The notes under the pieces were generated by a model that searched no databases, was not told the origin of the DNA, and saw only the letters and a list, made by a program, of their open reading frames with translations. Of a DNA stretch of 45,006 nt, positions 1 to 13,613 are shown piece after piece. The first letter of the stretch is position 1, and each line of letters starts with the position of its first letter. This DNA is from a virus, in the UHGV virus genome UHGV-0282798; one strand, written 5' to 3'. Both the position numbers and the translations under genes were made by a program.

Positions 1-919
1 CATTAGTGTGGCCCGAGCGACCAGAGGCGTCAGGGTAAACCGTAACCGTATGGCCCGGATACCGTATCCTGACATTATTGACGAAGTCGTCGGTATTATG
101 GCTGACAAACTCATCAACAACCGTCGGGTTGCCGTCTTCAATAACGCTCACGGTGGCGCAACAGCCGCCGATGTTAAAGTCCAACCCTATGTGCAGAGCG
201 TCTCCATTCTGCAAGGTGCGGGTGGAGTCATGTGTGCTTCGTTTGAAATAGTGATACACCTTATTGGCCGTCAAACTGACAAATTCACCGTTGATATACA
301 TATCGGCCAAAGCCGCGTCGTAGTTCCTTCGTATCTGCTCGACGTAGCCTTCAGGTAAATATGGGTTCGACAATGTAGATGCCTTAATCAGTTCCGTAGA
401 ACTGTCGGCGTTAGTAACCCAATAGTCATACACAAATCCGGAGAATCCCTGGTCAGGTGTAGTCACGGCGGCAATACTGTTCCCGCCCCTACACGGTTGT
501 CGGGTACGCTCTGAAATCTTACGCCACACCAGAGACGCCTGTTCTTTAGTAAGCACGTCAAGTTCGTCTGCGACAGAATGCGCCACCTCAAAAGCGATTA
601 GACGGTTCGGGTTGTCGTATGACCTGAAAAACATAGTACCGTAACCTTTAACATGGATACTGTATTCTGATTTGTTGAGGTCATACTTAAGCCCCATCAT
701 ATTCAGGTCATCAACCACACCGGGAATGGCACGCAGCTTCAACAGGTCATACGTGGGCATGGTGTACAGGGTGTTTATCCCTCGCTCTCGCAACATGAGA
801 TACAGGAGACGCATCGTGGCCGCGCGGGACTTGCCTGCCCCCAGTCCAGCGACAATAGCTGGATGTGTCTTTGTACTGAATACAAAGTCCTGTTGGGGTT
901 CTGTTAATGGGATATCCAT
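1..919 (-). CDS. terL: Terminase large subunit, N-terminal ~306 codons (continues in frame at 44690-45006)
   Basis: Own minus-strand translation from ATG 917-919: MDIPLTEPQQDFVFSTKTHPAIVAGLGAGKS (Walker A) ... AFEVAHSVADELD (Walker B-like). Open to position 1, so absent from ORF track. ATG overlaps terS stop. Confidence 0.8.
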   Translation of the reverse strand, partial: MDIPLTEPQQDFVFSTKTHPAIVAGLGAGKSRAATMRLLYLMLRERGINTLYTMPTYDLLKLRAIPGVVDDLNMMGLKYDLNKSEYSIHVKGYGTMFFRSYDNPNRLIAFEVAHSVADELDVLTKEQASLVWRKISERTRQPCRGGNSIAAVTTPDQGFSGFVYDYWVTNADSSTELIKASTLSNPYLPEGYVEQIRRNYDAALADMYINGEFVSLTANKVYHYFKRSTHDSTRTLQNGDALHIGLDFNIGGCCATVSVIEDGNPTVVDEFVSHNTDDFVNNVRIRYPGHTVTVYPDASGRSGHTN

Positions 920-1470
920 TACTCGCCCCCCGGTTTAACAGCCTTAACGAAACGAATCTCGATAGGTTCAGAACCCTCGCCAGTCGATTCTTCTTTCTTA
1001 TTCAGCCCCAGCTTCGCAGCGGCAAACGTAGCAGAGATGCCAGCAGCCCCTGTCTCAGTGAAATACGCCTCTTCCAGCGCCTGTGCTGTTTCATAGGCTT
1101 CTGCAAACGCGGGTATCTCACGCAGCCACAGCTTGATAATCGGGATAGTGACGCCGATGTGTAGGGCAAAGCGGGCCAGTGACGGGGGTTTATCCTGAAT
1201 AAGCGGGCGTTCGTCACCCTTAGACGTAGGTACGAGTTCCCACGACGTGCGGTCGAAGAACTCGATTAACTCGTCGCAATAGTCCGGGTCCCACAACGCG
1301 GCGGAATTACGGGATGATTGATAAAGGCTCTGTTTACCGCGCGGTCGTTTACGGCGACGGTTTGCGCTAACAGCTTCTTCATGTGCAGCTTGCACCACCT
1401 CTGGCGATGGCTGCTTAAGTTTCAGCTTCATAGAATCCCCTTGCATATGCGTCTGACCATCAGAGCGCAC
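919..1470 (-). CDS. terS: Terminase small subunit (putative)
   Basis: 183-aa ORF immediately upstream of and overlapping terL; basic N-terminus, region DPDYCDELIEFF...AKLGLNKK resembles small-terminase DNA-binding proteins. Start may be internal (MKLKLKQ). Confidence 0.5.
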   Translation of the reverse strand: MRSDGQTHMQGDSMKLKLKQPSPEVVQAAHEEAVSANRRRKRPRGKQSLYQSSRNSAALWDPDYCDELIEFFDRTSWELVPTSKGDERPLIQDKPPSLARFALHIGVTIPIIKLWLREIPAFAEAYETAQALEEAYFTETGAAGISATFAAAKLGLNKKEESTGEGSEPIEIRFVKAVKPGGE

Positions 1471-1650
1471 CAGACGCGCCCTGCGCGTCTAAAGGGATTA
1501 TATAAGGGGATTGGGCGGGATGTACAGAAAAGCCCTCCGTAGAGGACTTGTATCAGTTATATAGGCCGTGTCGTGGTGCTCTTTTACCATCGCCGCCGTA
1601 ATGGTCGTTAGCTACGGCGATAGCCCATGCGTTAGGCATGATTAACAGTT

Positions 1651-1830
1651 TCATTTTAAGAATCTCAGCGCGGCGTCCGCGATACCGGACACCACTAGCC
1701 CGAAAAACATAGGCCACCAGATATATCTTGGCAGATTGGTAAATGTTTCGGGCTTAGTCCAGAAAGCCATTAAAAACGCGAGCCAAAACACCATATAACT
1801 AATGTTGCTAAGTAATTCTAAAATATTCAT
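1651..1830 (-). CDS. Small membrane protein (59 aa)
   Basis: Own translation MNILELLSNISYMVFWLAFLMAFWTKPETFTNLPRYIWWPMFFGLVVSGIADAALRFLK; two hydrophobic segments; ATGA overlap with upstream gene; below ORF-track size cutoff. Confidence 0.3.
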   Translation of the reverse strand: MNILELLSNISYMVFWLAFLMAFWTKPETFTNLPRYIWWPMFFGLVVSGIADAALRFLK

Positions 1831-2063
1831 TCCCCGCTCTCCCCTTTAGCAATGCGTTGCTCAGTTTTAGTGATACCCCGGCGCGTGAATAACACCGGGC
1901 TGGTCTTAACGTGCGTCATCAGACGGTTGTTATAAATTACGTGGCGCTCGCAATCAACGTCTTTGCTGTACTTCGCAATCGTCATTTCGTTTATGCCAGT
2001 TTGCCGGCATGTCTCGGCCATCGTGCCGAATTCTTTAATCAGGTTCGGAATGCTGGTAATCAA
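1827..2063 (-). CDS. Small helix-turn-helix-like protein
   Basis: ORF track; segment MAETCRQTGINEMTIAKYSK looks like an HTH; start may be the internal Met. Confidence 0.4.
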   Translation of the reverse strand: MITSIPNLIKEFGTMAETCRQTGINEMTIAKYSKDVDCERHVIYNNRLMTHVKTSPVLFTRRGITKTEQRIAKGESGE

Positions 2064-2341
2064 TTTGTCTCTCCTTTAGTGACAGTAATGTCTTTCTTAT
2101 CCAGGTCTACAAAAATCGTATGTGCACCGCTTGTGTAAACGTGGCACCGCGGGACTAGGCTTTCTGTGGTCCATAAAAACTCTTGCGGACGACCGGCACG
2201 CACTCTCCTAATTTCAAACTTGCCGTATTTAATGACAACCCCGTAGTTATGTGTTGCAGATGGGTTGCAGAATTTACTATAAACGGCTTCTTCTATCGCA
2301 GATTCAATATCAGTGAATCTCGAAGCAACAGTACGTGCCAT
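2060..2341 (-). CDS. Hypothetical protein
   Basis: ORF track; stop/start overlap with neighbours in a co-directional gene chain. Confidence 0.4.
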   Translation of the reverse strand: MARTVASRFTDIESAIEEAVYSKFCNPSATHNYGVVIKYGKFEIRRVRAGRPQEFLWTTESLVPRCHVYTSGAHTIFVDLDKKDITVTKGETN

Positions 2342-2344
2342 TAT

Positions 2345-2614
2345 TTACAACTCCACATACCCAACACCCCACATAACTAACATCCCGACCGCTACTCCAA
2401 TCAGAATAGATACTGTCGTATTTGCCCATGTCCGCTGGCTACGCAAAGTCTCGGCGTTCTCCAGAATGTTGCGAACACGCGTTAAGTGTTCAATCTCCAG
2501 TTTCGCGGCTATCAGTTCCTGGGATGCTTTTGAATACTTGCCGTTAATCTTGTCCAACGCTTTTTTAAGGTCTTTGTTGTTCTTCTTGAGTTGCTCAATC
2601 TGTTCCATACTCAC
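2345..2614 (-). CDS. Coiled-coil protein with C-terminal transmembrane anchor
   Basis: ORF track; N-terminal heptad-like EQIEQLKKNNKDLKKALDK, C-terminal hydrophobic stretch VSILIGVAVGMLVMWGVGYV. Confidence 0.45.
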   Translation of the reverse strand: MSMEQIEQLKKNNKDLKKALDKINGKYSKASQELIAAKLEIEHLTRVRNILENAETLRSQRTWANTTVSILIGVAVGMLVMWGVGYVEL

Positions 2615-2817
2615 CCCACTATCTCATCGCCAAGCCACGCCGTTTCTCGTATATCGTCGACCACACACGCGGCGTGCTCACGGCTAATTGCAAAAATGTA
2701 GAAGCTGAACTTCTTCCCGTCGGCGTCGATGTGGTTAACCGCGTAAGGTTTCCACAGGACGCCATCAATCACTACTGGCTCAGGCGCTTTCATCTTCTTG
2801 CCCGACAAAATTGTCAT
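2611..2817 (-). CDS. Hypothetical protein
   Basis: ORF track; overlapping stop/start with flanking genes. Confidence 0.4.
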   Translation of the reverse strand: MTILSGKKMKAPEPVVIDGVLWKPYAVNHIDADGKKFSFYIFAISREHAACVVDDIRETAWLGDEIVG

Positions 2818-3079
2818 ACAGCGGGATTATTACGTCAGCCCCGTCCTTTGAAGCTGCGGTTGCCGTGTTGTAATAAGCCAGAGAAGAACTGTCGTCACCG
2901 ACGAACAACCCAGCATACACGTTCGGTTCTTGCGTCTTAATAGCCAGTAGCTCTTTAAACGCCTTCAGCTGAAACTCACCGTTAATTGACAGTTGCCCGC
3001 CTAACGTCTGTTTCTCCGACTCTAGCACCAGAATACGGCGCTCAAGTGATGCGATTGTAATTTTAGGCATTGGTGTCAC
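2780..3079 (-). CDS. Hypothetical protein
   Basis: ORF track; start probably at a later Met to relieve overlap. Confidence 0.4.
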   Translation of the reverse strand: MTPMPKITIASLERRILVLESEKQTLGGQLSINGEFQLKAFKELLAIKTQEPNVYAGLFVGDDSSSLAYYNTATAASKDGADVIIPLYDNFVGQEDESA

Positions 3080-3248
3080 CTTTGTTCAGATTGAAGCGGT
3101 TAATCAGTTCACGGCGTGTCTCGTAAAGCGACTCAACCATTTGCTCGGCTACAGCGATTTTGGTATTCAGGACGTGCATCACGTGGCCGATGTCTACGCC
3201 GCCGTTAACAGCCTCTACCATCATCTTTTCGTATTCACGGTCGGTCAT
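3063..3248 (-). CDS. Hypothetical protein
   Basis: ORF track. Confidence 0.4.
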   Translation of the reverse strand: MTDREYEKMMVEAVNGGVDIGHVMHVLNTKIAVAEQMVESLYETRRELINRFNLNKGDTNA

Positions 3249-3403
3249 TCTTTACGCTCTCCCCACATGCGATTGAGATACTTGTTCTTGTCCGGCCCAG
3301 GGAAACTGTTACGTTTCATCAGTTCCTCGCGTGTAGGGAACGGGGTGTTACTTACTTTACTGCCTACTCGTAATGGTTGGCTTACTTGACCTTGTTCGCT
3401 CAT
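3245..3403 (-). CDS. Small ORF (52 aa)
   Basis: Own translation MSEQGQVSQPLRVGSKVSNTPFPTREELMKRNSFPGPDKNKYLNRMWGERKE; RBS AGGAGAGAAGAA before ATG 3401-3403; ATGA coupling with next gene. Confidence 0.3.
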   Translation of the reverse strand: MSEQGQVSQPLRVGSKVSNTPFPTREELMKRNSFPGPDKNKYLNRMWGERKE

Positions 3404-3549
3404 TTCTTCTCTCCTGCGTAAGCTGCTTTCAGTGTTTGCATCGCAGCGAACCAGAACGCGTCAGCGGGGATACTGCTACTAAGGTTACTAACGGCGATAC
3501 GTGCCATCAGTTGTGCGTCTTTGAATGCTTCGATATCTGTGATTTTCAT
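3400..3549 (-). CDS. Small ORF (49 aa)
   Basis: Own translation MKITDIEAFKDAQLMARIAVSNLSSSIPADAFWFAAMQTLKAAYAGEKK; RBS GAGTAGAGAAG; first gene after promoter at 3589-3617. Confidence 0.3.
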   Translation of the reverse strand: MKITDIEAFKDAQLMARIAVSNLSSSIPADAFWFAAMQTLKAAYAGEKK

Positions 3550-3588
3550 CTTCTCTACTCCGTTCTCGTTCTCGTTGTCGATGAAGTA

Positions 3589-3617
3589 AATATAATAGGG
3601 TCTACGGTAATAGTCAA
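3589..3617 (-). promoter_or_regulatory. Sigma70-type promoter (minus strand): TTGACT-17-TATATT
   Basis: Reverse complement of 3589-3617 reads TTGACT attaccgtagaccctat TATATT; sits between tandem terminators and the next minus-strand gene. Confidence 0.35.
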
Positions 3618-3639
3618 CTAGTCATTACAGAAAATAGAT

Positions 3640-3671
3640 AAAAAAAATCCCGGCTGGGTCAGGGCCGGGAT
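3640..3671 (-). terminator. Intrinsic terminator (minus strand)
   Basis: Stem ATCCCGGC (3647-3654) / GCCGGGAT (3664-3671), 9-nt loop; on the minus strand the hairpin is followed by an 8-U run (plus-strand A-run 3640-3647). Downstream of the endolysin gene. Confidence 0.6.
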
Positions 3672-3740
3672 AAAACTGGAGAGTAGAGGGATGAAGCAGG
3701 AGGTGATTTAAGTATCGTCGGATTAGTCTTAGGTGTCAAT

Positions 3741-3774
3741 TGGTAAAATAAAACCCGGATTCGCGGTCCGGGTT
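3741..3774 (-). terminator. Intrinsic terminator (minus strand)
   Basis: Stem AACCCGGA (3752-3759) / TCCGGGTT (3767-3774), loop ttcgcgg; minus-strand RNA continues UUUUAUUUUACC. First of two tandem terminators after the lysis operon. Confidence 0.55.
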
Positions 3775-3902
3775 TCGGTCATAAGCCCCTGAACCCTACG
3801 CAGTCTCCACCGCTTGGGCTGCTGCTTCAGGTTTACCAGGGCTTAGTATGCAAGCACAAGCAGCGTGGAAGTAATTTTACTAAATGCCTTCGTATTCGTC
3901 CA

Positions 3903-4439
3903 TCATTTAACGGCTCTCCCAATAGCCTCAGCCTCTTGCCACGGTTTACCGTCGAACAGCGCCAGACGCCCGGCTGCACGGCGACGCAGGCCGAGTAATG
4001 GTTTGCCGTTCTGGTTGATGAACAGCGCCAGCTTGGCACGCAGTGTTGCAATATCACCTGAGCGCAGCGCCTTACCCGTGCCAGTAGTAGCCGCAATCAC
4101 ACCAGCACCCGCGTTGTAGACCAGGTCACACACAGCGTCGAACTGCGCCTGTGTCAGTGAATGGTGCGCCACCGAATCCACCGCAGCTACGGCCTTAGCC
4201 ATATCGCGATTAAGTAACAGGAGGCCTTGTCCCGGTGTGATGGTCTTGCCTGGAGTCACGTCCGGCCCGTAGTGGCCGTAGCCAATAGTAAGGTACTTCT
4301 CATTCGGCGTAGCACGATACGCAGTTCCGCGGAATCCCTCGAACGCAGCACAGAAATGCAATCCATTATCTGAAATATTTCGAGACACGCTTATGTCCTC
4401 CGTATGACAGCCACGCCTGACGAATCTGGCGCAGCGCAA
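3903..4439 (-). CDS. Endolysin, phage lysozyme (GH24) family
   Basis: EGFRGTAYRATPNEKYLTIGYGH and LTQAQFDAVCDLVYNAGAG match T4-lysozyme-type motifs. Likely true start is GTG at 4386-4388 preceded by GGAGG (ACGGAGGACATAAGC GTG), giving about 162 aa. Confidence 0.8.
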   Translation of the reverse strand: MRCARFVRRGCHTEDISVSRNISDNGLHFCAAFEGFRGTAYRATPNEKYLTIGYGHYGPDVTPGKTITPGQGLLLLNRDMAKAVAAVDSVAHHSLTQAQFDAVCDLVYNAGAGVIAATTGTGKALRSGDIATLRAKLALFINQNGKPLLGLRRRAAGRLALFDGKPWQEAEAIGRAVK

Positions 4440-4638
4440 CTAATGTGATTAATGTCTCAGGCAGCGTAGGTGACATGCTGCCCTGTAACAGGTGGATGCA
4501 TCCGGCGGCGCAGACGATAGCAGTCAGGATATAGAGCACCCGGCCAAATAATCCGTCGTCCACGCTGGGGTGATACACATTAAACAGCGATGCGCCCCCG
4601 ATGGCCAGCATACCGCCGAACCAGAATAACTCATTCAT
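4366..4638 (-). CDS. Holin or antiholin-like membrane protein (2 TM)
   Basis: Hydrophobic segments FWFGGMLAIGGASLF and LYILTAIVCAAGCIHLL; immediately upstream of endolysin. Confidence 0.5.
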   Translation of the reverse strand: MNELFWFGGMLAIGGASLFNVYHPSVDDGLFGRVLYILTAIVCAAGCIHLLQGSMSPTLPETLITLVALRQIRQAWLSYGGHKRVSKYFR

Positions 4639-4939
4639 CCGGGCCTCCTCGACGTGAGATGTATTCCCCGGCGACGATACCGGAGAGGCGGGAATAGATG
4701 GGCATCCAGAGAATGGCGATGATGAATCCGAGGCCAGCTATCTCTCGCTCCCCAGTAATGCCAAACCATTGCGCGGCAAGAGGTGCACCAAACACGGCAC
4801 AGGTGAAGCCGGTTGCAATAAAGCAGAAGCCGTCAATGGGGCCAGAAATAACGGACTTATGTTGTCGTAGTCCGATTACCCCTCCGGCTAGCGCGGCAGC
4901 GAGAAGCCAGCCCGTCACTGTTTCAGTAAATTTATCCAA
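4631..4939 (-). CDS. Holin-like membrane protein (3 predicted TM)
   Basis: Three hydrophobic segments with a charged C-terminal tail RRGGPDE; position in lysis cassette. Confidence 0.55.
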   Translation of the reverse strand: MDKFTETVTGWLLAAALAGGVIGLRQHKSVISGPIDGFCFIATGFTCAVFGAPLAAQWFGITGEREIAGLGFIIAILWMPIYSRLSGIVAGEYISRRGGPDE

Positions 4940-4998
4940 GATGAATCCTCCAGGTGCGTATTAAGTATGCAGTAACTGGAGGATACCACGGGTAGGAA

Positions 4999-5439
4999 TT
5001 ATCCTAATAGTTGTTTGGTAATAATCTTGCCGCCGGTGTTGGTGTCGAACTTCGATGCAACAGCTACGCCGCCATGTGCTGAATAACCACATTCCATAGC
5101 CGCCAGTGCATAAGGAGAGCCGGACCCAACGGCGGCAAAACCGTCTGCAATAGGGATAACAGAGCTTAGTGCACAATCCCATGATTTATAGAACGCGACT
5201 TTATACACCTTTTCTGTGTCTTTCACGAACACAAGGGCTTCGAAATCGAAGTCGTATGATTTTGGATTAAGTACGCCATTATCACGGATTAGCATAACCC
5301 CAACTCCTGCGTCCCCGGCTACCCCAATTATGAAATGGTCATTCTCGTATATCTTTGTGTCTGTGTTGTAACAGTTACTCCCGCACACAACACAGGTGTC
5401 ACAGGCCATTGTCTTTCCGTCAAACGCGATAGTCGTCAT
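4999..5439 (-). CDS. HslV/proteasome-beta-like Ntn-hydrolase with Cys4 insertion
   Basis: N-terminus MTTIAFDG (Thr directly after initiator Met); KIYENDHFIIGVAGD parallels HslV RLYNDKVIAGFAGG; AAVGSGSPYALAA parallels HslV IAIGSGGPYAQAA; inserted CDTCVVCGSNC cluster. Confidence 0.6.
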   Translation of the reverse strand: MTTIAFDGKTMACDTCVVCGSNCYNTDTKIYENDHFIIGVAGDAGVGVMLIRDNGVLNPKSYDFDFEALVFVKDTEKVYKVAFYKSWDCALSSVIPIADGFAAVGSGSPYALAAMECGYSAHGGVAVASKFDTNTGGKIITKQLLG

Positions 5440-5786
5440 TTATGTCTCCAGATGTATTGTCGTCTCTGTGGTTTCGTCGGGATATCTTCATACCCCAGCG
5501 ATTTCCAGTAATTAAATAACCGGTTAGCGATTGCTGCGCGTTCCTGTGTTTTAAACTCACCCAGGTTAACTGCCTTCCCGTTCTGGAACCCACAGGCGCG
5601 GATAGCTTTGCGCCTGGCCTGAATCTCCGGGTACAGCGCGTTACGGCGGCGCTTGTGTATTCGGGCGGTTGCTCTCGGTGACAGCGGCACGAGGCCGCTT
5701 CGTTTCAGGATGTCAGTTGCCCGGCTCATGCCATCCTCCCACATTTCGAGCATGTCTGGAAGTCGTCCACATCGTGCATAACCCAC
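5436..5786 (-). CDS. Small AP2-like DNA-binding protein
   Basis: NGKAVNLGEFKTQERAAIANRLF resembles the AP2 core (LGxFxTxEEAAxAY). Probable start is ATG at 5727-5729 (MSRATD..., ATGA overlap with upstream stop). Confidence 0.4.
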   Translation of the reverse strand: MGYARCGRLPDMLEMWEDGMSRATDILKRSGLVPLSPRATARIHKRRRNALYPEIQARRKAIRACGFQNGKAVNLGEFKTQERAAIANRLFNYWKSLGYEDIPTKPQRRQYIWRHK

Positions 5787-6055
5787 TCATGCTTGCATAC
5801 CTGCGCATCCTCTTTACGGCAACCGGACTGCCCCGTAACATCTTCAACCCCTTCCACGTGTGTAACGGCCCCACAGTTCACGCACTCGACATAATCCGGG
5901 AACTGGTCTTTGTATTTCTGTAACTCGGCTTCGAGCGCCATTAAATCAGAGTACCGCACGCGCACATACTCGCCGCTATATTGGGCCTCCGGCGACAGTG
6001 TACGCCAGTCGAATAGTTTAATCATCACCGCGCCTCCGTAAATCGCGAAGCGCAA
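5726..6055 (-). CDS. Zn-ribbon protein, paralog A
   Basis: C-terminal SGCRKEDAQVCKHEWVMHDVDDFQTCSKCGRMA, paralogous to the C-terminus of 6465-7034. Probable start ATG 6023-6025 (MIKLFDW) preceded by GGAGG. Confidence 0.5.
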   Translation of the reverse strand: MRFAIYGGAVMIKLFDWRTLSPEAQYSGEYVRVRYSDLMALEAELQKYKDQFPDYVECVNCGAVTHVEGVEDVTGQSGCRKEDAQVCKHEWVMHDVDDFQTCSKCGRMA

Positions 6056-6335
6056 TAATCCCGTCTAACATTCCGATGGCGTGGTCGACTGTGAAATCCT
6101 CATCCTCACAAAGATTCCGCAGATGTAATACGGCCTTGACCAATTTATGGTAATCCTCTGTGTAACAAAGCTCGCCCTCTTCCGCGCGCTGTTCGTTTAA
6201 CTGAAATAGCGTTGCGCCAGGTACAGTACCAAGCGGAACAGCATTAAAAGTACGAATAGTCATGTTATTTCTCCTGTTTACCAAGTCGCTTAGGTGAGCA
6301 AATAGCGCGTACCTCTGAATCGTTGGGCTTGTCAC
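6018..6335 (-). CDS. Hypothetical protein
   Basis: ORF track; likely start at internal ATG 6261-6263 (MTIRTFNAV...). Confidence 0.4.
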   Translation of the reverse strand: MTSPTIQRYALFAHLSDLVNRRNNMTIRTFNAVPLGTVPGATLFQLNEQRAEEGELCYTEDYHKLVKAVLHLRNLCEDEDFTVDHAIGMLDGIIALRDLRRRGDD

Positions 6336-6468
6336 CCTGGAACAGGAAGTGCGCGTTCTCTGCGGCGCGTGCCGCTGACTGGCACGCCTCCATCGAGTAA
6401 AACGTTTCCGATGTCGCCAGGTGCATCTGGCCTGCGGACAGTACCCATATAAATAAGATGCTGGTCAT
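6265..6468 (-). CDS. Small protein with N-terminal hydrophobic segment
   Basis: MTSILFIWVLSAGQMHLA looks like a signal or TM segment. Confidence 0.4.
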   Translation of the reverse strand: MTSILFIWVLSAGQMHLATSETFYSMEACQSAARAAENAHFLFQGDKPNDSEVRAICSPKRLGKQEK

Positions 6469-7034
6469 TTCAGTTTAGCCCCGCAATCAAGACACTTTTT
6501 AGTAAAACCCGGCGCAAAGCCTTTGCGCAAACCGACGGTATTAGCGTGTTGGCAATCGCTCGATTCCGATTCTTGCTTACCGCATTTAGCGCAAATGAAG
6601 TAGTCCCCTTTTTCATCTAGCACCCAATCATGCTCGCATTCCTGAGTATCTTCCTTACGGCAATCAGATTGCTCAGGTTCATGCGGAAACTTATTAGCTA
6701 GAACGGATACCTGCCTACCGAGTAAATTAAGCGCTTTCTGCAGCTCTGTCTCCCGCGCCGACGCATCGCGTAACTGATTCTTAAGTGACTGCAACTCATG
6801 CGCCAGGTCTTCGCACTGGTTGTTATTTACCTGCTGACGTAAACTGTCTTTCAGCGCTCGTATTTCGTCGTCCTTACCGGCGATATGCTGCTGTAGGTTG
6901 TGAATTACCTGCTTGACCTCATCAAGGTCGGATATCCGCACAGACACATCGAAAGATGTGACATCTTTCTTATTTACCTGCTGCCGTAGCTGGTCAATCA
7001 GGTACTCGAATACTACATCATTTGCGTTCTGCAT
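6465..7034 (-). CDS. Coiled-coil protein with C-terminal Zn-ribbon, paralog B
   Basis: Long heptad-like region then SDCRKEDTQECEHDWVLDEKGDYFICAKCGKQ plus a second CxxC (CLDCG). Confidence 0.55.
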   Translation of the reverse strand: MQNANDVVFEYLIDQLRQQVNKKDVTSFDVSVRISDLDEVKQVIHNLQQHIAGKDDEIRALKDSLRQQVNNNQCEDLAHELQSLKNQLRDASARETELQKALNLLGRQVSVLANKFPHEPEQSDCRKEDTQECEHDWVLDEKGDYFICAKCGKQESESSDCQHANTVGLRKGFAPGFTKKCLDCGAKLK

Positions 7035-7161
7035 TTTTAGCCTCTCTGTTCATAAGTTCCAGTAATAACCTAGCTGTTTGGCGCTCACGGGTGTTTCTCG
7101 GTGACGAGGCGTAGAACTCTAGCACCTCGCGTGATGGTTCTTGTGCGGTTTTACTGTTCAC
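7018..7161 (-). CDS. Small basic ORF (47 aa, GTG start)
   Basis: Own translation (M)NSKTAQEPSREVLEFYASSPRNTRERQTARLLLELMNREAKNAERK; RBS GGAGAG before GTG 7159-7161; just downstream of promoter 7191-7219. Weak. Confidence 0.25.
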   Translation of the reverse strand: MNSKTAQEPSREVLEFYASSPRNTRERQTARLLLELMNREAKNAERK

Positions 7162-7190
7162 TCTGTCTCTCCACTCGTTGGTGTAAATGA

Positions 7191-7219
7191 ATAGTAGCCT
7201 ATTCTATCTCAGTGTGCAA
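7191..7219 (-). promoter_or_regulatory. Sigma70-type promoter (minus strand) TTGCAC-17-TACTAT with AATAG-N4-CTATT dyad
   Basis: Reverse complement: TTGCAC (7214-7219), 17-bp spacer, TACTAT (7191-7196); dyad AATAGTAGCCTATT at 7190-7203. Confidence 0.45.
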
Positions 7220-7525
7220 GTAAATTTTATTGGCGTGTTATAGAATCTATGAACGACAGTAACGCGCGCTCCGCTTCTGCTTCTCTTTCTTCAAGCGACC
7301 AGGTAGCGGATTCCTCTGTTGCCGTTGCTATATCTGTTTTCACATCAATCATCGTGTTGATTAACGCGATTAGTCGTTCGGCCTGTTCTTTAGTAATCAT
7401 TGTTGCATCTCCTGCAATAGTCGCTTCTATTGTTGCGTTTGGTGAAATAGAACAAAAATGAGAAAAATGATACGCTGCTGTGTAGCAGCGTAAGTCACAA
7501 AGCCAAATAGTAACCTATTGACCTG

Positions 7526-7735
7526 TTACACCAGCGATGGTGGCTCGGGTAACGGCATCCGGTGAGTTACATTAGCTTCATCGTAATAGGATGAGTCATA
7601 CGAATGAATCTCCCAACTAACATAATCTCCATATCGGAGATAGTACCCCTCGTGGACTTGTCTTAAGTCGTCGTAAACAAGTACGTCCTCGCCTTCTTCC
7701 GGCATCCGCTCACTACACTTAATCCACTCACCCAT
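7526..7735 (-). CDS. DUF551-like small protein
   Basis: WIKCSERMPEEGEDVLVYDD ... VTHRMPLPEPP matches the pattern I recall for the DUF551 family. Confidence 0.45.
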   Translation of the reverse strand: MGEWIKCSERMPEEGEDVLVYDDLRQVHEGYYLRYGDYVSWEIHSYDSSYYDEANVTHRMPLPEPPSLV

Positions 7736-7885
7736 ATCTCACCTCGGATTTGCAACAGACAACACACCAGCTTTCCACGCCCGCCACGCGAGACGAGTCT
7801 TAACGTTCAGGTACTCTTTCTTCGAACCCTTATTAACCGGCAGACCCTCGACGACGGCCCACCGTTCGAATGCTTCTCTCATAAC

Positions 7886-8131
7886 TTAGTCCTCATCATC
7901 TTCTAAGTCGGGGTACACTATGAAATCGCCAAGCCTTTGCAACTCTGCACCTGCCATAAAATAACCAAGTGCTTCGGCTCTTTCGGAATCTGTTTTAAAC
8001 TCAGACAGAGGATATCTTTCGTAGAACTTGTTAATTAATAGCGCATGGTCAAACTTAGTTGCATCATAATTTTTCATAACTAATAACTCCGATAACTTTA
8101 GATTTCTCGCGCCGGGTGCAACCATGCTCAA
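7886..8131 (-). CDS. Small protein with acidic C-terminal tail (PDLEDDED)
   Basis: ORF track; C-terminus repeats the DLEDD motif found in the SSB tail and the primase linker; start may be internal (MKNYDATK). Confidence 0.4.
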   Translation of the reverse strand: MSMVAPGARNLKLSELLVMKNYDATKFDHALLINKFYERYPLSEFKTDSERAEALGYFMAGAELQRLGDFIVYPDLEDDED

Positions 8132-8315
8132 TGTAGTAGCGCGCCTGCTTGACGCTTTCGCAACGCGTCAACGTAACCCACCAGAACAACCCGACCCTCA
8201 CCTGCACGGCGGGTGTAATTCGTTTCTCACCGAAGGCGGTAACCCACTCTTCGCTAACTATGCGGTATTTACTTAACACGGCAACCTCCCTCAGAGTCGT
8301 CGGCACGAGCATCAT
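8064..8315 (-). CDS. Hypothetical protein
   Basis: ORF track; co-directional early gene chain. Confidence 0.4.
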   Translation of the reverse strand: MMLVPTTLREVAVLSKYRIVSEEWVTAFGEKRITPAVQVRVGLFWWVTLTRCESVKQARYYIEHGCTRREKSKVIGVISYEKL

Positions 8316-8478
8316 GATTCGATGCCGTTCGGATAGAACGCAAACTATGTAGCATTCTCCCGGCGGAAGCTGTGATAATCGTTACCCCATCTAAAATAAC
8401 AACCTCGTACCTGTTTACCCGGAAATGCACTTTCTCCAGTTTATGATGTTTCAGCTCTTCAAATAATTCTTCCATCAC
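8269..8478 (-). CDS. Hypothetical protein
   Basis: ORF track (GTG start in track; ATG at 8473-8475 is more likely). Confidence 0.4.
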   Translation of the reverse strand: MMEELFEELKHHKLEKVHFRVNRYEVVILDGVTIITASAGRMLHSLRSIRTASNHDARADDSEGGCRVK

Positions 8479-8672
8479 TTCACCCCTTTGAATTTAAAAT
8501 TGTTGCCGATGAGTTCTAAATACTCCGCGCTTACAGTTGCATGGCCGCCAGTAAATACATTGCGAAGTTTACAAATGGCAGCACTGCCTCTGTTGTTGGT
8601 GGAAAATACGGAGTACAAACATCCCGACTTTTTACTACGGACCAACTGACCCTTCTTAAACATAACCCTCAC
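8475..8672 (-). CDS. Hypothetical protein
   Basis: ORF track; likely start ATG 8661-8663 (MFKKGQLV) with GAGG RBS. Confidence 0.4.
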   Translation of the reverse strand: MRVMFKKGQLVRSKKSGCLYSVFSTNNRGSAAICKLRNVFTGGHATVSAEYLELIGNNFKFKGVK

Positions 8673-8697
8673 CCCTCTGTCTCGTTTCGATAAGTGA

Positions 8698-8726
8698 ATA
8701 GTATCCTATTATGTTTGGGTGTGCAA
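8698..8726 (-). promoter_or_regulatory. Sigma70-type promoter (minus strand) TTGCAC-17-TACTAT with dyad
   Basis: Reverse complement: TTGCAC (8721-8726), 17 bp, TACTAT (8698-8703); dyad AATAGTATCCTATT at 8697-8710; about 30 bp upstream of the first minus-strand early gene. Confidence 0.45.
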
Positions 8727-8899
8727 GAGAATAGTTACGTTGCCGTTGTGATTCTTTCGTTTCTTAAAAGAGTACGCAACGCAGGGGGTGGGCATTAGCC
8801 CACCCCAGCGGAGTGAAGTACTCTCTACCTTGCTCACGGCAACTATAGAAACTTTTAATTATCAGTGACTTGGGTATTTAGGCGGGATTAACAATAGAC

Positions 8900-9000
8900 T
8901 ATGGCCCTTCCGAATGCGGGCAGCGACACTACACTCAGTGCTAACGCACCGCTCCGTTCTCCTGCCGCACCGCGGTCGCTTGTTCATACTTCACAAGCTC
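8900..9000 (-). ncRNA. Conserved structured 5-prime leader RNA or small RNA (putative), copy 1
   Basis: About 100 nt downstream of the repeat promoter are conserved between copies with compensatory changes in two hairpins; the only ORF through it is not conserved in copy 2. Confidence 0.35.
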
Positions 9001-9006
9001 AGGTGG

Positions 9007-9035
9007 AGCTTAGCATATTTTTAGTGAAAAGTCAA
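9007..9035 (-). promoter_or_regulatory. Sigma70 promoter inside repeat copy 1 (minus strand): TTGACT-17-TGcTAAGCT
   Basis: Reverse complement: -35 TTGACT (9030-9035), 17-bp spacer, extended -10 TGC TAAGCT (9007-9015); identical in copy 2. Confidence 0.5.
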
Positions 9036-9083
9036 TATCAGTAGCATCTTTTGTATCTTAGTAACTTTGTTGTTGCTTTTTGC

Positions 9084-9112
9084 TTGAAGTACCATTATCT
9101 TAGGTACTTCAA
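9084..9112. promoter_or_regulatory. Perfect 10-bp inverted repeat (TTGAAGTACC / GGTACTTCAA)
   Basis: 9084-9093 and 9103-9112 with a 9-nt loop, about 20 bp upstream of the ATG of the first plus-strand replication-block gene. Confidence 0.4.
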
Positions 9113-9130
9113 CAACTGAGGGGTATTTAG

Positions 9131-9274
9131 ATGAAGATTTGCCAGATGTGTAGGAAAGAAAAAGAAGAAGGTGCATTCCTTAAACGTTATGACAGAAAAG
9201 GAACGCGTAGTTATTGCCGTGAATGTTTCAATGCATACCGCAAACAATTAAGAGAGGCTAAGAAGAATGCATAA
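9131..9274 (+). CDS. Small Zn-ribbon protein (47 aa)
   Basis: Own translation MKICQMCRKEKEEGAFLKRYDRKGTRSYCRECFNAYRKQLREAKKNA (CxxC ... CxxC); GAGGGG RBS; below ORF-track cutoff. Confidence 0.4.
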   Translation: MKICQMCRKEKEEGAFLKRYDRKGTRSYCRECFNAYRKQLREAKKNA

Positions 9275-9716
9275 ATACTTAGATGAGTTTCTGAAATCGT
9301 TAAACCTGATATTAGCCGAGAACCCGGGAGCGTCACTGCATGACATTAAATCGGCAATAGAACTCGACGGGCCAATTAGTGCCGTGATTTCATTGCTTGG
9401 GTATTTCGGGGAGATAGACCGTGTTTATGATGGTAGTAAATATCTGTATTGGGTTAAAGGCGGTAAGCCATCCAATGTTATATCAGTTCCTTTTCCCGAG
9501 AAGGGCCAACTTACGGAGTTACAAAAACTAGTCTATGGAAAATGTCTTGAACAGCAAGGCCGACGCATCACCCCTAGTGCGGTATACGCCCTGGTAAAAG
9601 ATGACGTCACCAATCTTGGTGCTGTCTGTACCGCTATGCGCGGACTTTCTAAAAAAGGTTTGTTGATTAAGGTGTGTGATGGCGTGTATGCTCTTGCAGT
9701 ACCAAACGCCAAATAA
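9267..9716 (+). CDS. Winged-helix-like DNA-binding protein
   Basis: ORF track; two similar half-sequences (LHDIKSAIELDG... and SAVYALVKDDVTNLGAVCTAMRGLSKKGLL) suggest tandem winged-helix folds. Confidence 0.45.
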   Translation: MHKYLDEFLKSLNLILAENPGASLHDIKSAIELDGPISAVISLLGYFGEIDRVYDGSKYLYWVKGGKPSNVISVPFPEKGQLTELQKLVYGKCLEQQGRRITPSAVYALVKDDVTNLGAVCTAMRGLSKKGLLIKVCDGVYALAVPNAK

Positions 9717-9774
9717 AAGAAAGCCCCGACGCGGTGAACGCCGAGGCCAAATTACTTGCTGAAGGAAATACAAC

Positions 9775-12042
9775 ATGTCCGATGTAATTTTATCCTACTC
9801 GTGGTCCCGTCGCAACGCGCGGGCAGAGAAAAAGGATATAAACGTCAGAACTACACACACGGCAACACTGGACGACCTGAAAGAGTTAATCCAGCCGCTC
9901 GATGCTGTTCGTGACGGAATTAACCCTAAGACAGCACCTGGCTATATTACTGCCGCGTGCGACTCAACGCACAGCACCGTAAAAGACCCGGAAACCGGTG
10001 ACTTTAAGCAAGCGCGTAAGGGTTTTTTCTATCGTTGCGACGCATCTGTAAGCAAATCGTCACTGGCGTATCTGGACTTCGACAGCGCAACACCGGAAGA
10101 GTATCAGGAAGCGGTGCGCCTGGTTAAGCGCAGCCGCCAGGCTATGTGCCTCTACACCACGGCATCGCATACCGATGAGTCTCCTCGCTTTCGCGTCGTC
10201 ATGCCGCTGGGACGCCCGGTCGAAGGTGGCGACATCATCCGCGTTCGTCATGGATTGCTCGGGCACTTCTTCAAAGGCATGGGTGCTGACCGCAGCGGGT
10301 TCACTCTGTCACAGCCGATGTACCTGCCGCCGGTTGGCGCTACCGTTATCTGGTCACGCCGCAATGACCTGATTGACCCGGACGAGTTACTGGAGGGTAT
10401 CCCCGCCGTTGACGTCAGCAGCGCATCGGATTACCAGATTCCGGAAGAACTGCGCACCGCGTTTACTGATGCGTTCGAGGTACTGGCGTTTGAGTACGGC
10501 GGCATCATGACGCCACGCGGCCTTAAGATGCCAGCTACACCGGAACACGCAGAAAACTACAGCGATCCAACACCGCGCCTGGACGACTTCCTATTGTGCT
10601 TTCCGCGCGAAGGGTACGAAGCGCCTAACGTAACCATGATTCACGACACCGACATTACCGCAACCGAAGGCATGTCGCCGAAGGAGGTGTGGAAGTATGC
10701 GTGTGATGCGACCGGGTTGCCGTTCAGTGAAGTCGCTGAGGCAATCGGCTGGGGTGCGCGTGAATCAGTTTCATGCAGCCTGGACGACCTGGAAGACGAT
10801 GAGGACTCAGAGGAGGACGAGTTACCAGAACCGGTAAAGGCTGATTTCGTCGTTGAAGGGTACATGCCGTCAGATTGTATCTGGGATATTGTCGGGGAAT
10901 CTGGCACGTACAAATCATTCTATACGCTGGGTATGATGTATCTCAGCGCCGCTGGTTACCGGTTTGCGGGGGCGGATACCCAGCGTTGTCACCATTTCTA
11001 TATCGATGGTGAGGGTGGTGCAGCCACACGTACACGTATCGATGCCCTCGCGGCTAAATATGGCGAGGAAGGTAAAGATTACGTACATGTCATCGATATG
11101 GGCGAAGTCGGCAAACTGAAAAGCCTGATTAAGTTAATGCGCGAAACCGCTGGCGATGAGCCAATAGGCATGGTTGCATTCGACACCCTTAACCAGACGC
11201 TGGCCCTGACAATCGATAAGTTCGACGAGAACAGTTCATCGACGGCAATCGGCATGGGTAAAGTTATCGCCATCCTGAAAGAAGTACGCGACGCAACTAA
11301 AGCCGCAGTAGGCGTTGTTCACCATACGCCGAAAGGCGGGAAGAAAGCACGTGGTAGCGGGGCACTGTATGCGGGTGTTGACGTGGAACTGACAATTGAG
11401 CGTGCAACCGACCGTCAGATAAACGTATATCACTCGAAATTTAAGCACGGGCCTCAACAGAAGACTGTTGGCATGGTTCTGGAGTCCGTACAGTTCCGTG
11501 AAGCCCCGCCGCCGAAACAGTACCGCGCGGTTGAGTTCCTGGGTAGCACAGAGGAATACGGCACAATCGTTAACCTCGACCTGCCGGAGCCGCACAAGGC
11601 GCTTGTGTTGATGCCGTGGGGCTTTGAACCGTTCAAGACCGACGAGGAGAAAGAGCGGGAAGAAGGGCTGACAAAGGAAGGTAAAGAAAACGTACGTAAA
11701 ACCGTAGAGAACGCCGTCAACAGCTCAGAAGCCACAATACTGGCAGCGTTTGAACTGGCGGAAGGAACCTACAACGGAAACGAAGGTATCACAGTAGCCG
11801 CAGCGAATAAGCTGGCACAGTCCGACCCCAACGCAAAGGCGTTTAACTCCAAAGAAGCCATAGAACGCGGGAAGATTAAGAAAATGGTTGAGGCCGGGTA
11901 TCTTGTACCGGGGACTGACGAAAACAATCAGATAATACCGGGCCGTTACAGACTTAACACCAGGATAACAGATAACAAGATTCCGAAGACAATATACGAA
12001 CCGAATGAAATGCTGACAGTGACCGAGGAGGATTTGGAATAG
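9775..12042 (+). CDS. Primase-polymerase (AEP) fused to RepA/DnaB-like helicase
   Basis: N-terminal AEP-like motifs (LDFDS, TTASHT); C-terminal P-loop GESGTYKS and Walker-B-like VAFDTLNQ; acidic linker DDLEDDEDSEEDE; C-terminus TVTEEDLE. Confidence 0.7.
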   Translation: MSDVILSYSWSRRNARAEKKDINVRTTHTATLDDLKELIQPLDAVRDGINPKTAPGYITAACDSTHSTVKDPETGDFKQARKGFFYRCDASVSKSSLAYLDFDSATPEEYQEAVRLVKRSRQAMCLYTTASHTDESPRFRVVMPLGRPVEGGDIIRVRHGLLGHFFKGMGADRSGFTLSQPMYLPPVGATVIWSRRNDLIDPDELLEGIPAVDVSSASDYQIPEELRTAFTDAFEVLAFEYGGIMTPRGLKMPATPEHAENYSDPTPRLDDFLLCFPREGYEAPNVTMIHDTDITATEGMSPKEVWKYACDATGLPFSEVAEAIGWGARESVSCSLDDLEDDEDSEEDELPEPVKADFVVEGYMPSDCIWDIVGESGTYKSFYTLGMMYLSAAGYRFAGADTQRCHHFYIDGEGGAATRTRIDALAAKYGEEGKDYVHVIDMGEVGKLKSLIKLMRETAGDEPIGMVAFDTLNQTLALTIDKFDENSSSTAIGMGKVIAILKEVRDATKAAVGVVHHTPKGGKKARGSGALYAGVDVELTIERATDRQINVYHSKFKHGPQQKTVGMVLESVQFREAPPPKQYRAVEFLGSTEEYGTIVNLDLPEPHKALVLMPWGFEPFKTDEEKEREEGLTKEGKENVRKTVENAVNSSEATILAAFELAEGTYNGNEGITVAAANKLAQSDPNAKAFNSKEAIERGKIKKMVEAGYLVPGTDENNQIIPGRYRLNTRITDNKIPKTIYEPNEMLTVTEEDLE

Positions 12043-12070
12043 GTAAAAAGAAAGGGGCGTTAAGCCCCTT
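12041..12070 (-). terminator. Intrinsic terminator for the repressor gene
   Basis: Stem AAGGGGC (12052-12058) / GCCCCTT (12064-12070); on the minus strand it is followed by UCUUUUUACC. Lies between the convergent primase and repressor genes. Confidence 0.5.
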
Positions 12071-12275: not shown

Positions 12276-12305
12276 GTCAATTACTCCTTAGTCAGTTGAT
12301 ATGTG

Positions 12306-12368: not shown

Positions 12369-12400
12369 TAGCCTATACCAAACGAGAGGAGAGAAACAAA

Positions 12401-12550: not shown

Positions 12551-12565
12551 ACAGGAGAGAAACAA

Positions 12566-13066: not shown

Positions 13067-13121
13067 CTACTTAACTTATGGTGCCATCATACGTGAGGGC
13101 ACCAAACTGAGGGTCGGAATT

Positions 13122-13610: not shown

Positions 13611-13613
13611 AAG

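What the first reader, a model, noticed from the sequence alone, without database searches (positions are those of the whole stretch)
4999..5439. Phage-encoded HslV/proteasome-like Ntn-hydrolase with a Cys4 insertion, adjacent to the holin
The 146-aa product begins MTTIAFDG (Thr immediately after the initiator Met, as in HslV where Thr1 is the nucleophile) and contains KIYENDHFIIGVAGD and AAVGSGSPYALAA, which parallel HslV RLYNDKVIAGFAGG and IAIGSGGPYAQAA. A CDTCVVCGSNC cluster (four Cys) is inserted near the N-terminus. No HslU-like ATPase is encoded, so it would have to act alone, use the host ATPase, or act as a decoy. Its position directly upstream of the holin in the lysis operon suggests a role in lysis timing or host takeover.
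Basis: partly seen in the sequence, partly recalled or inferred. Interest (0 to 1): 0.65.

Follow-up and report, generated by a model that had tools for sequence, protein, structure and literature searches.

The report
Known phage proteasome-like peptidase (PPH)
The gene is a real, well-conserved phage copy of a small proteasome/HslV-like threonine peptidase, from a family described in 2021 and routinely annotated in relatives; its four-cysteine "insertion" and its link to lysis do not hold up.

Summary

It is not an HslV orthologue (15.7 bits against a 157.75-bit cutoff). [quoted passage not shown] PHROGs already labels the family "peptidase HslV family", and about 313 phage records carry it.

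The Cys4 cluster is neither an insertion nor conserved. Cys16 is a private CGT→TGT change, and Arg holds that position in nearly all 120 close relatives.

Adjacency to the holin is real but is lineage synteny. Kagunavirus K1G lacks the gene cleanly with the same lysis cassette, and distant relatives sit in other genome modules.

No unfoldase is encoded. Function is untested; most likely a dispensable, ATPase-independent peptidase.

The parts
4999..5439 (-). PPH-type proteasome/HslV-like Ntn threonine peptidase gene, 146 aa (ATG 5439-5437, TAA 5001-4999)
5434..5436 (-). Codon 2, Thr: the predicted N-terminal nucleophile once the initiator Met is removed
   Evidence: Thr in 127 of 130 diverse relatives and Ser in the other 3. 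139 of 150 representatives start with MT.
5398..5400 (-). Codon 14, Asp: equivalent of HslV/proteasome Asp17
   Evidence: Asp in 127 of 130, Glu in 3. Aligned to HslV Asp17 by hhalign, probability 95.5%.
5353..5355 (-). Codon 29, Lys: equivalent of Lys33
   Evidence: Invariant in 130 of 130. Aligned to HslV Lys33.
5314..5316 (-). Codon 42, Gly: equivalent of the oxyanion-hole Gly (proteasome Gly47, HslV Gly45)
   Evidence: Gly in 129 of 130. Aligned to the HslV 'FAGG' Gly.
5119..5127 (-). Codons 105-107, the Gly-Ser-Gly motif, equivalent of HslV 'GSGG' and proteasome Ser129
   Evidence: Gly105 and Gly107 are invariant; Ser106 in 115 of 130. Aligned to HslV IAIGSGG.
5044..5046 (-). Codon 132, Asp of the conserved FDxxTGG motif. 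Inferred (not directly aligned here) to correspond to proteasome Asp166/Ser169/Gly170.
   Evidence: Asp in 125 of 130; Gly136 conserved in at least 90% of both alignments (invariant in the second, A2). The correspondence to Asp166 is my inference from the known proteasome motif RDxxSGG.
5371..5403 (-). Codons 13-23, CDTCVVCGSNC: a lineage-specific Cys-rich stretch on the beta-strands that follow Asp14. It is not an insertion and not a conserved metal site.
   Evidence: No gap columns in this stretch. Column residues across the family: position 13 Ala 81/130, position 16 Leu/Arg/Gln, positions 19 and 23 variable. The 120 close homologues mostly read CDTRVVCGSNC or CDTRVAGDHIY.
5392..5394 (-). 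Codon 16, TGT (Cys): a private substitution of the CGT (Arg) found in the relatives examined
   Evidence: Window GACACCTGTGTT vs VT223 GACACCCGTGTT and G AB-2017 GATACGCGTGTT. None of the 120 closest homologues has Cys here; most have Arg, a few Gln or Leu.
5436..5786 (-). Upstream ORF of unknown function (phrog_9632). The likely real start is the ATG at 5729, giving 97 aa. Its stop overlaps the PPH start codon.
   Evidence: A 97-aa orthologue lies directly before the holin in K1G.
4631..4939 (-). Holin 1 (TTG start), 59 nt downstream of the PPH stop
   Evidence: phrog_2359 holin, E=3.5e-29.
4366..4638 (-). Holin 2
   Evidence: phrog_2508 holin, E=1.1e-33.
3903..4439 (-). Lysozyme-type endolysin. 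This is the maximal ORF; the real start is probably near 4388, by analogy with the 486-nt K1G gene.
   Evidence: phrog_7 and phrog_33703 endolysin, E=4e-40 and 2e-48. K1G annotation.

Best explanation
[quoted passage not shown] It is a minimal, 146-aa N-terminal-nucleophile threonine hydrolase.

Shown here:
- the proteasome/HslV fold;
- the full catalytic constellation, all under strong conservation: Thr2, Asp14, Lys29, Gly42, Gly-Ser-Gly 105-107 and Asp132;
- no propeptide;
- loss of helix H2;
- no phage-encoded unfoldase;
- dispensability, from natural absence in K1G;
- no conserved gene neighbour.

Inferred:
- Host methionine aminopeptidase removes Met1, since Thr is a permitted second residue. 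This exposes Thr as nucleophile and general base without any autoprocessing, as in E. coli HslV.
- The protein then acts as an ATPase-independent peptidase, probably as a homo-oligomer, on unfolded or specific host or phage polypeptides during the middle-to-late phase of infection.
- It is an accessory fitness factor, not part of the lysis machinery.
- It is co-transcribed with the lysis genes only because it sits at a gene boundary in a long same-strand transcription unit.
- The four cysteines are incidental.

The confidence of 0.55 is for the whole statement including the inferred mechanism. The fold and family assignment alone I put at about 0.9.

For: Sequence: family profile against PDB gives BPH 3.1e-8, HslV 1.2e-7 to 1e-5 and beta5 5e-5. 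hhalign to E. coli HslV has probability 95.5%, with Asp14=Asp17, Lys29=Lys33 and Gly42=Gly45. 70 of 123 family members hit Pfam Proteasome, best E=2e-8. phrog_1040 matches at E=5e-34.

Catalytic conservation across 130 representatives sharing about 28-41% identity with the query (plus one at 81%): Thr2 127 (plus 3 Ser), Asp14 127, Lys29 130, Gly42 129, Gly105 and Gly107 130, Asp132 125.

PPH features:
- 146 aa.
- Only one short helix (46-52) between strands S4 and S5, then H3 (108-116), H4 (121-131) and a final strand; there is no H5. This matches the published description that PPH lacks H2, has about 140 residues, occurs in Caudovirales and radiates from BPH.

Purifying selection: synonymous codon changes exceed non-synonymous ones.

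No unfoldase: for this genome. None is among the commonest neighbour families in 63 lineages. The published study also found no co-occurring AAA+ partner.

Dispensable and independent of lysis: K1G lacks the gene precisely, with identical flanks and the same lysis cassette.
Against: No biochemical or genetic data exist for any PPH that I could find. Peptidase activity, oligomeric state and substrates are all inferred.

This protein alone scores below Pfam's gathering threshold (18.8 vs 22.4 bits).

The loss of H2 could alter or abolish ring assembly, on which activity depends in proteasome subunits.

A minority of unrelated PPH loci also lie within about 0.1-0.7 kb of an endolysin or holin: about six independent lineages besides Guernseyvirinae (plus one more at about 1.3-2.6 kb). 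A loose association with lysis modules is therefore not fully excluded.

Identity with the published PPH cluster rests on matching features. I could not make a direct comparison with the published representative WP_042125023.1 because its sequence was not retrievable.
Confidence: 0.55

Rival explanations
1. Hijacker of the host unfoldase. The phage protein assembles into an HslV-like ring that docks onto host HslU (ClpY), or another host AAA+ protein, and redirects ATP-dependent degradation to phage-chosen targets.
For: It is homologous to HslV with an intact active site. Its enterobacterial hosts have HslU (general knowledge). No phage ATPase is encoded.
Against: It is far from HslV in sequence: 15.7 bits against the 157.75-bit equivalog cutoff, and about 20% identity in the alignment. 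The H1/H2 region is about 25-30 residues shorter and H2 is absent; in HslV and proteasomes that face is the one opposite the ring-ring contacts made by H3/H4, so the canonical docking surface is remodelled (inference). The family occurs in phages of many hosts, and no AAA+ co-occurrence has been seen.
Confidence: 0.1
2. Lysis-timing factor. The peptidase processes or degrades a holin, antiholin or endolysin regulator and so sets the time of lysis.
For: It lies directly upstream of holin-holin-endolysin on the same strand, with no terminator-like or convincing promoter-like site in the 59-nt spacer. This synteny is conserved in Kagunavirus and Jerseyvirus. A few unrelated PPH loci also lie near endolysin or holin genes.
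Against: K1G has nearly identical flanks and the same two holins and endolysin but no PPH gene. In most of the 63 lineages the neighbours are terminase, head-tail connector or replication genes. VT223 has an extra small ORF between PPH and the holin. The protein has no predicted membrane segment and its model is a soluble globular fold.
Confidence: 0.07
3. Non-proteolytic Ntn enzyme. It uses Thr1 for transpeptidation or ligation (as connectase does) or for amide hydrolysis of a non-protein substrate.
Against: The best structural and sequence matches are all true peptidases (BPH, HslV, 20S beta), at much higher scores. It lacks the helical S3/S4 insertion that gives connectase its specificity.
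Confidence: 0.12
4. Catalytically irrelevant decoy or poison subunit that binds to or co-assembles with host HslV/HslU and inhibits it.
For: It is a small HslV-like protein with no partner ATPase.
Against: Near-invariance of Thr2, Asp14, Lys29, Gly42, the GSG motif and Asp132 across relatives sharing only about 30-40% identity with the query is what is expected of an active enzyme, not a decoy. Its divergence from HslV makes co-assembly unlikely.
Confidence: 0.04
5. The four cysteines (C-x2-C-x2-C-x3-C, a ferredoxin-like spacing) form a zinc or iron-sulfur site that regulates the peptidase.
For: The spacing CDTCVVCGSNC is present in this genome.
Against: None of the 120 closest homologues has Cys at position 16 (Arg in nearly all, Gln or Leu in a few), and the difference is one C-to-T change. 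Many orthologues read RVAGDHIY, with no Cys at positions 19 or 23. Position 13 is Ala in 81 of 130. Only 1 of 130 family members has four Cys in its first 30 residues. The residues lie on consecutive beta-strands of the conserved core, not on a loop insertion.
Confidence: 0.02

Closest known systems
[quoted passage not shown]
   Same: About 140 residues. Encoded by tailed phages of proteobacteria. Thr directly after Met with no propeptide. Conserved Thr/Asp/Lys/Gly catalytic set. Helix H2 missing and no C-terminal S12/H5. Nearest characterised relative is BPH. No associated AAA+ gene and no informative gene context.
   Different: Nothing substantive. This copy has a private Arg16Cys change. 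It is 96% identical to the annotated protein of Salmonella phage VT223. A direct comparison with the paper's representative sequence could not be made.
HslV (ClpQ), the peptidase of the bacterial HslVU protease
   Different: About 30 residues shorter. Helix H2 and most of the H1-H2 segment are absent. About 20% identity in the alignment. It fails the HslV equivalog models by a wide margin. No hslU partner gene is present. Oligomeric state is unknown.
BPH (beta-proteobacterial proteasome homologue; PDB 5ovs, 5ovt, 5ovu)
   Different: BPH is about 185-200 aa with both helix pairs and a long acidic pore loop, and it is chromosomal rather than phage-borne.
20S proteasome beta subunits (Pfam PF00227)
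   Same: Core alpha-beta-beta-alpha Ntn fold and catalytic residues.
   Different: No propeptide, no alpha-type partner, much smaller. This protein is below the Pfam gathering score.

Membership tests
Proteasome/HslV superfamily (Ntn hydrolase, MEROPS T1-like; Pfam PF00227) | Four-layer alpha-beta-beta-alpha Ntn fold superposable on known members | tested here: met
Proteasome/HslV superfamily (Ntn hydrolase, MEROPS T1-like; Pfam PF00227) | Significant sequence-profile similarity | tested here: met
   The single sequence is below Pfam's gathering score (18.8 vs 22.4 bits). The family profile, however, hits BPH at 3e-8 and HslV at 1e-7. hhalign probability is 95.5%. 70 of 123 relatives hit PF00227.
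Proteasome/HslV superfamily (Ntn hydrolase, MEROPS T1-like; Pfam PF00227) | Catalytic Thr1, Asp/Glu17, Lys33, oxyanion Gly47 and the Ser129-region GSG motif | tested here: met
   Thr2, Asp14, Lys29, Gly42 and Gly105-Ser-Gly107 are present and 97-100% conserved in 130 relatives (Ser106 itself 88%). They align to the HslV residues.
Proteasome/HslV superfamily (Ntn hydrolase, MEROPS T1-like; Pfam PF00227) | Actual threonine-peptidase activity | not testable with these tools
   No experimental report was found for any PPH.
HslV proper (NCBIfam TIGR03692 / NF003964 equivalogs) | Score above the curated equivalog cutoff | tested here: not met
   15.7 bits vs 157.75 and 14.8 bits vs 137.
HslV proper (NCBIfam TIGR03692 / NF003964 equivalogs) | Both helix pairs (H1/H2 and H3/H4), about 175 aa | tested here: not met
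   146 aa. A single short helix (46-52) stands in place of H1/H2. There is a gap of about 25-30 residues against HslV in the hhalign alignment.
HslV proper (NCBIfam TIGR03692 / NF003964 equivalogs) | Partner HslU ATPase encoded with it | tested here: not met
   No Clp/HslU-type AAA+ protein is found among the window ORFs of at least 170 aa that were scanned (all of those of at least 350 aa), or among the commonest neighbours of relatives.
HslV proper (NCBIfam TIGR03692 / NF003964 equivalogs) | Double hexameric ring that docks HslU | not testable with these tools
   Only monomer prediction was available.
PPH clade (Fuchs et al. 2021) | About 140 residues, no propeptide, compact with no C-terminal S12/H5 | tested here: met
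   146 aa. The MTT start aligns at residue 1 in 139 of 150 representatives. The model ends with strand 139-143 after H4. Published description.
PPH clade (Fuchs et al. 2021) | Second helix (H2) absent | tested here: met
   DSSP on the model shows only H46-52 between strands 36-42 and 66-72. Published description.
PPH clade (Fuchs et al. 2021) | Encoded by tailed phages or prophages of (mainly) proteobacteria | tested here: met
   The window is a Kagunavirus-like siphophage. 313 phage records carry a homologue. There are 280 or more viral contigs and a prophage context in L005.
PPH clade (Fuchs et al. 2021) | Nearest neighbour cluster is BPH | tested here: met
PPH clade (Fuchs et al. 2021) | Direct sequence clustering with the published representative WP_042125023.1 | not tested
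   The sequence was not retrievable with the tools. A cluster look-up of NCBI-sourced relatives returned no matching accession.
Cys4 zinc / Fe-S binding module | Four ligand cysteines conserved among orthologues | tested here: not met
   None of the 120 close homologues has Cys16 (Arg in nearly all). Cys19 and Cys23 are lost in many. Cys13 is Ala in 81 of 130.
Cys4 zinc / Fe-S binding module | A discrete inserted loop or knuckle carrying the ligands | tested here: not met
   There are no gap columns at positions 1-24 against 129 relatives. The stretch is one residue shorter than in HslV. The residues lie on core beta-strands 10-14, 16-19 and 23-26.

The most novel reading that the evidence does not exclude
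PPH proteins, this one included, could be stand-alone, ATPase-independent threonine peptidases. With helix H2 missing they might have an unconventional oligomeric architecture. Phages might deploy them as accessory weapons, for example to cleave a host defence or stress protein. That would make them the first functionally defined viral proteasome homologues. My evidence shows an intact and strongly conserved active site, dispensability, no partner gene and highly mobile genomic placement (moron-like). All of this is compatible with that reading, but none of it proves it.
Probability: 0.25. Interest if true: 0.55.

Novelty: already known. Interest (0 to 1): 0.2.

Why it matters
For the scan this is a correct homology call on an ordinary, already catalogued gene. 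The two features that made it look special, the Cys4 'insertion' and the lysis linkage, do not hold up.

More broadly, PPH is a large family with no experimental characterisation that I could find. Here 1434 representatives at the 50%-identity level match at E<=1e-3, against 324 nr90 sequences in the 2021 survey. A Kagunavirus/Jerseyvirus copy in an E. coli or Salmonella phage, with natural PPH-minus relatives such as K1G, would be a convenient genetic system for asking what a viral proteasome homologue does. That is a property of the family, not a discovery in this window.

Tried and rejected
1. Single-sequence searches were weak: Pfam 18.8 bits (below cutoff), PDB phmmer E>=0.014 with a spurious top hit to carboxymuconolactone decarboxylase, and NCBIfam 15-18 bits. 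Family profiles and structure prediction were needed to settle the homology.
2. PADLOC defence models gave no hit.
3. The Cys4 metal-site idea is rejected on conservation.
4. I looked for a conserved partner gene. All-against-all clustering of ORFs within 4 kb in 84 loci found no real neighbour family in more than 18 loci, and that one is an endolysin family of which 8 loci are Guernseyvirinae. PHROG scans of the two nearest genes on each side in 63 lineages gave heterogeneous results: terminase large subunit about 5-10, head closure 5, head-tail adaptor 4, and endolysin or holin a few each. Caveats: gene calling was a crude longest-ORF heuristic, and only the 25 commonest families are listed.
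5. The promoter/terminator scan found nothing convincing between PPH and the holin. A 9-of-12 promoter-like match inside the 3' end of the gene is no better than shuffled expectation.
6. Six literature searches for experimental work on phage HslV-like or PPH proteins found none.
7. I tried to link the protein to the published PPH accession through cluster look-ups, without success.
8. The afdb50 fold library was unavailable.
9. Model coordinates are not exposed, so Cys-Cys distances could not be measured.
Its residue mapping agrees with independent alignments to deposited HslV chains.

Full report
**1. The observation**

Window 4999..5439 holds a 146-aa ORF on the minus strand. Its ATG is at 5439-5437 and its TAA stop at 5001-4999.

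A GGAG lies about 7 nt before the ATG, and the ATG overlaps the stop of the upstream ORF (ATGA). The gene is under purifying selection. Against four of five orthologues, synonymous codon differences exceed non-synonymous ones about 2-3.5:1, for example 38:13 against phage G AB-2017 and 21:6 against VT223; the fifth is 38:30.

Downstream, after a 59-nt spacer, come two holins (4631..4939, phrog_2359; 4366..4638, phrog_2508) and a lysozyme-type endolysin (3903..4439).

**2. The genome**

The window is a Guernseyvirinae siphophage genome. It is closest to Kagunavirus, at about 88% nucleotide identity over about 66% of the first 25 kb. Its modules are typical: helicase-primase, DNA polymerase, SNF2 helicase, tail, tape-measure, major head, portal and terminase.

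None of the window ORFs of at least 170 aa that were scanned (all of those of at least 350 aa) is a Clp/HslU-type unfoldase.

**3. What the protein is**

Single-sequence searches are weak:
- Pfam Proteasome: 18.8 bits, below the 22.4-bit gathering score.
- PDB phmmer: E>=0.014.
- NCBIfam HslV equivalog: 15.7 bits against a 157.75-bit cutoff.

The family-level evidence is decisive:
- PHROGs phrog_1040 "peptidase HslV family" matches at 5e-34.
- An exhaustive HMMER scan finds 1434 representatives at the 50%-identity level with E<=1e-3. Almost all are 135-160 aa and aligned from residue 1.
- A profile of 123 relatives hits solved BPH (3.1e-8), HslV (1.2e-7 to 1e-5) and proteasome beta5 (about 5e-5).
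- hhalign to E. coli HslV gives 95.5% probability.
- 70 of 123 relatives hit Pfam Proteasome individually.
- AlphaFold2 with that alignment gives pLDDT 91.8 and pTM 0.87.

**4. The active site**

In 130 diverse representatives sharing about 28-41% identity with the query (plus one at 81%), conservation is as follows:

| Residue | Conservation (of 130) |
|---|---|
| Thr2 | 127, plus 3 Ser |
| Asp14 | 127, plus 3 Glu |
| Lys29 | 130 |
| Gly42 | 129 |
| Gly105, Gly107 | 130 each |
| Ser106 | 115 |
| Asp132 | 125 |

hhalign maps Asp14, Lys29 and Gly42 onto HslV Asp17, Lys33 and Gly45. These are the catalytic triad and oxyanion glycine listed for all proteasome-like proteins. I infer from the known motif that FDxxTGG (131-136) corresponds to the proteasome's RDxxSGG (Asp166/Ser169/Gly170).

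139 of 150 representatives start with Met-Thr. There is no propeptide. Removal of Met1 by methionine aminopeptidase would suffice to expose the nucleophile; this rests on established specificity and was not tested here. Such conservation argues for an active enzyme rather than a decoy.

**5. Which family**

It fails the tests for HslV proper: the equivalog score, two helix pairs, and a partner HslU.

[quoted passage not shown] That anatomy is 146 aa, a single short helix (46-52) where H1/H2 would be, then H3 and H4, a last strand and no H5. The published description is about 140 residues, Caudovirales and their hosts, lacking H2, compact without S12/H5, and radiating from the BPH cluster. [quoted passage not shown]

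That paper also reports no informative context and no co-occurring AAA+ partner, which my own neighbour analysis reproduces. I could not compare the protein directly with the paper's representative accession, so membership rests on features rather than on a clustering run.

In GenBank, orthologues are already labelled "peptidase HslV family", "protease", "ATP-dependent protease" or "N-terminal nucleophile hydrolase domain containing protein". About 313 phage records carry one, and the best match is Salmonella phage VT223 at 96%.

**6. The "Cys4 insertion"**

It is neither an insertion nor a conserved site.
- The region has no gap columns against 129 relatives. It is one residue shorter than the corresponding HslV stretch.
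- None of the 120 closest homologues (77-96% identical) has Cys at position 16; nearly all have Arg, a few Gln or Leu. The window differs by a single transition, CGT to TGT.
- Many orthologues read ...CDTRVAGDHIYN..., with no Cys at positions 19 or 23.
- Position 13 is Ala in 81 of 130.
- This protein is the only one of 130 with four Cys in its first 30 residues.
- The residues sit on consecutive core beta-strands (10-14, 16-19, 23-26) around catalytic Asp14.

The resulting C-x2-C-x2-C-x3-C spacing resembles a ferredoxin motif. I treat that as coincidence, with about 2% probability of a real metal site.

**7. The lysis neighbourhood**

The adjacency is real and is conserved within Kagunavirus and Jerseyvirus. 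VT223 has an extra small ORF in between. There is no terminator-like or convincing promoter-like site in the spacer, so co-transcription with the lysis genes is likely.

However, Kagunavirus K1G has the orthologous upstream 97-aa ORF (94% identical) followed directly by the same holin-holin-endolysin cassette, and it has no PPH homologue anywhere in its genome. The DNA alignment shows identical flanks and about 25 nt resembling the 3' end of the PPH gene, which points to a clean deletion. The gene is therefore dispensable and is not an integral lysis component.

Relatives outside the subfamily sit in many different places:
- the tail module of Klebsiella Jedunavirus;
- inside head-tail connector modules (L004 and about 10 similar loci);
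- next to a phage-stabilisation gene (L003);
- after NinB/NinG in a prophage (L005).

I clustered 84 loci into 63 lineages at 70% identity. The nearest two genes on each side are terminase large subunit (about 5-10 lineages), head closure (5), head-tail adaptor (4), endolysin or holin (a few each, partly Guernseyvirinae), nucleases and others. No AAA+ unfoldase is among the commonest families.

About six non-Guernseyvirinae lineages do have a lysozyme-type endolysin within about 0.1-0.7 kb, plus one more at about 1.3-2.6 kb. A weak statistical association with lysis modules cannot be excluded with my crude gene calling, but there is no obligate linkage.

**8. Mechanism**

Best explanation, at about 0.55 for the mechanistic part and about 0.9 for the family and fold assignment: a minimal N-terminal-threonine peptidase. 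It would be activated by Met removal alone and work without a dedicated ATPase, probably as a homo-oligomer. It would act as a dispensable accessory factor expressed with the middle and late genes.

Rivals:
- a non-proteolytic Ntn chemistry such as ligation (0.12);
- hijacking of host HslU (0.10), disfavoured by the remodelled H1/H2 face and the great divergence from HslV;
- lysis timing (0.07);
- a decoy (0.04);
- a Cys4 metal site (0.02).

I found no experimental work on any PPH, so activity, assembly and substrates remain inferences.

**9. Verdict**

But it rediscovers a published and routinely annotated family, and the two embellishments that raised its score are not supported. Novelty: already known. 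Interest: 0.2.

The residual value is that this family is large, unstudied experimentally, and here sits in a genetically tractable E. coli/Salmonella phage group with natural PPH-minus relatives.

Noticed in passing
window 5726..6055 (-) and 6465..7034 (-): Two paralogous small ORFs upstream of the PPH gene share phrog_6094. Both carry a Cys-rich C-terminal motif (CRKEDAQVCKHEWV...CSKCG and CRKEDTQECEHDWV...CAKCG) that looks like a zinc ribbon. Function unknown.
   Followed up: no
window 4900..5520 vs Escherichia phage K1G (L008:39450-39650): K1G lacks the PPH gene between the conserved upstream ORF and the holin. It retains about 25 nt resembling the gene's 3' end, which suggests a clean deletion. 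The gene is a presence/absence polymorphism within Kagunavirus.
   Followed up: yes
window 12984..13610 (+) and 28273..28923 (+): An HNH_3+AP2 ORF and an AP2-only ORF resemble homing endonucleases. The second lies on the opposite strand within the minus-strand tail module, between the tape-measure gene and a tail/structural gene.
   Followed up: no
L004:4127-6421 and about 10 similar viral contigs: In a group of metagenomic phages the PPH gene sits inside the head-tail connector module (adaptor Ad1, small ORF, PPH, small ORF, head closure Hc1, tail terminator). In several other lineages it lies directly before the terminase large subunit. Placement looks moron-like.
   Followed up: partly
L023, L031/L036, L039/L052/L053, L041, L060, L069: Six or so independent non-Guernseyvirinae lineages have a lysozyme-type endolysin within about 0.1-1.3 kb of PPH. 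This may be more than chance, but it was not tested statistically.
   Followed up: partly
whole window (1..45006): The window looks like a complete, circularly permuted genome of a Kagunavirus-like phage, about 88% identical over about two thirds of its length to known species. The small terminase is at 919..1470 and the portal at 43196..44677. The large terminase was not identified here and may run across the window ends.
   Followed up: partly
window 3903..4939 (-); compare K1G 4663-5158: The lysis cassette here holds two holins and an endolysin but no spanins. In K1G the Rz-like spanins are annotated far away, inside the head-gene module. The lysis genes are therefore split between two loci in this phage group.
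   Followed up: no
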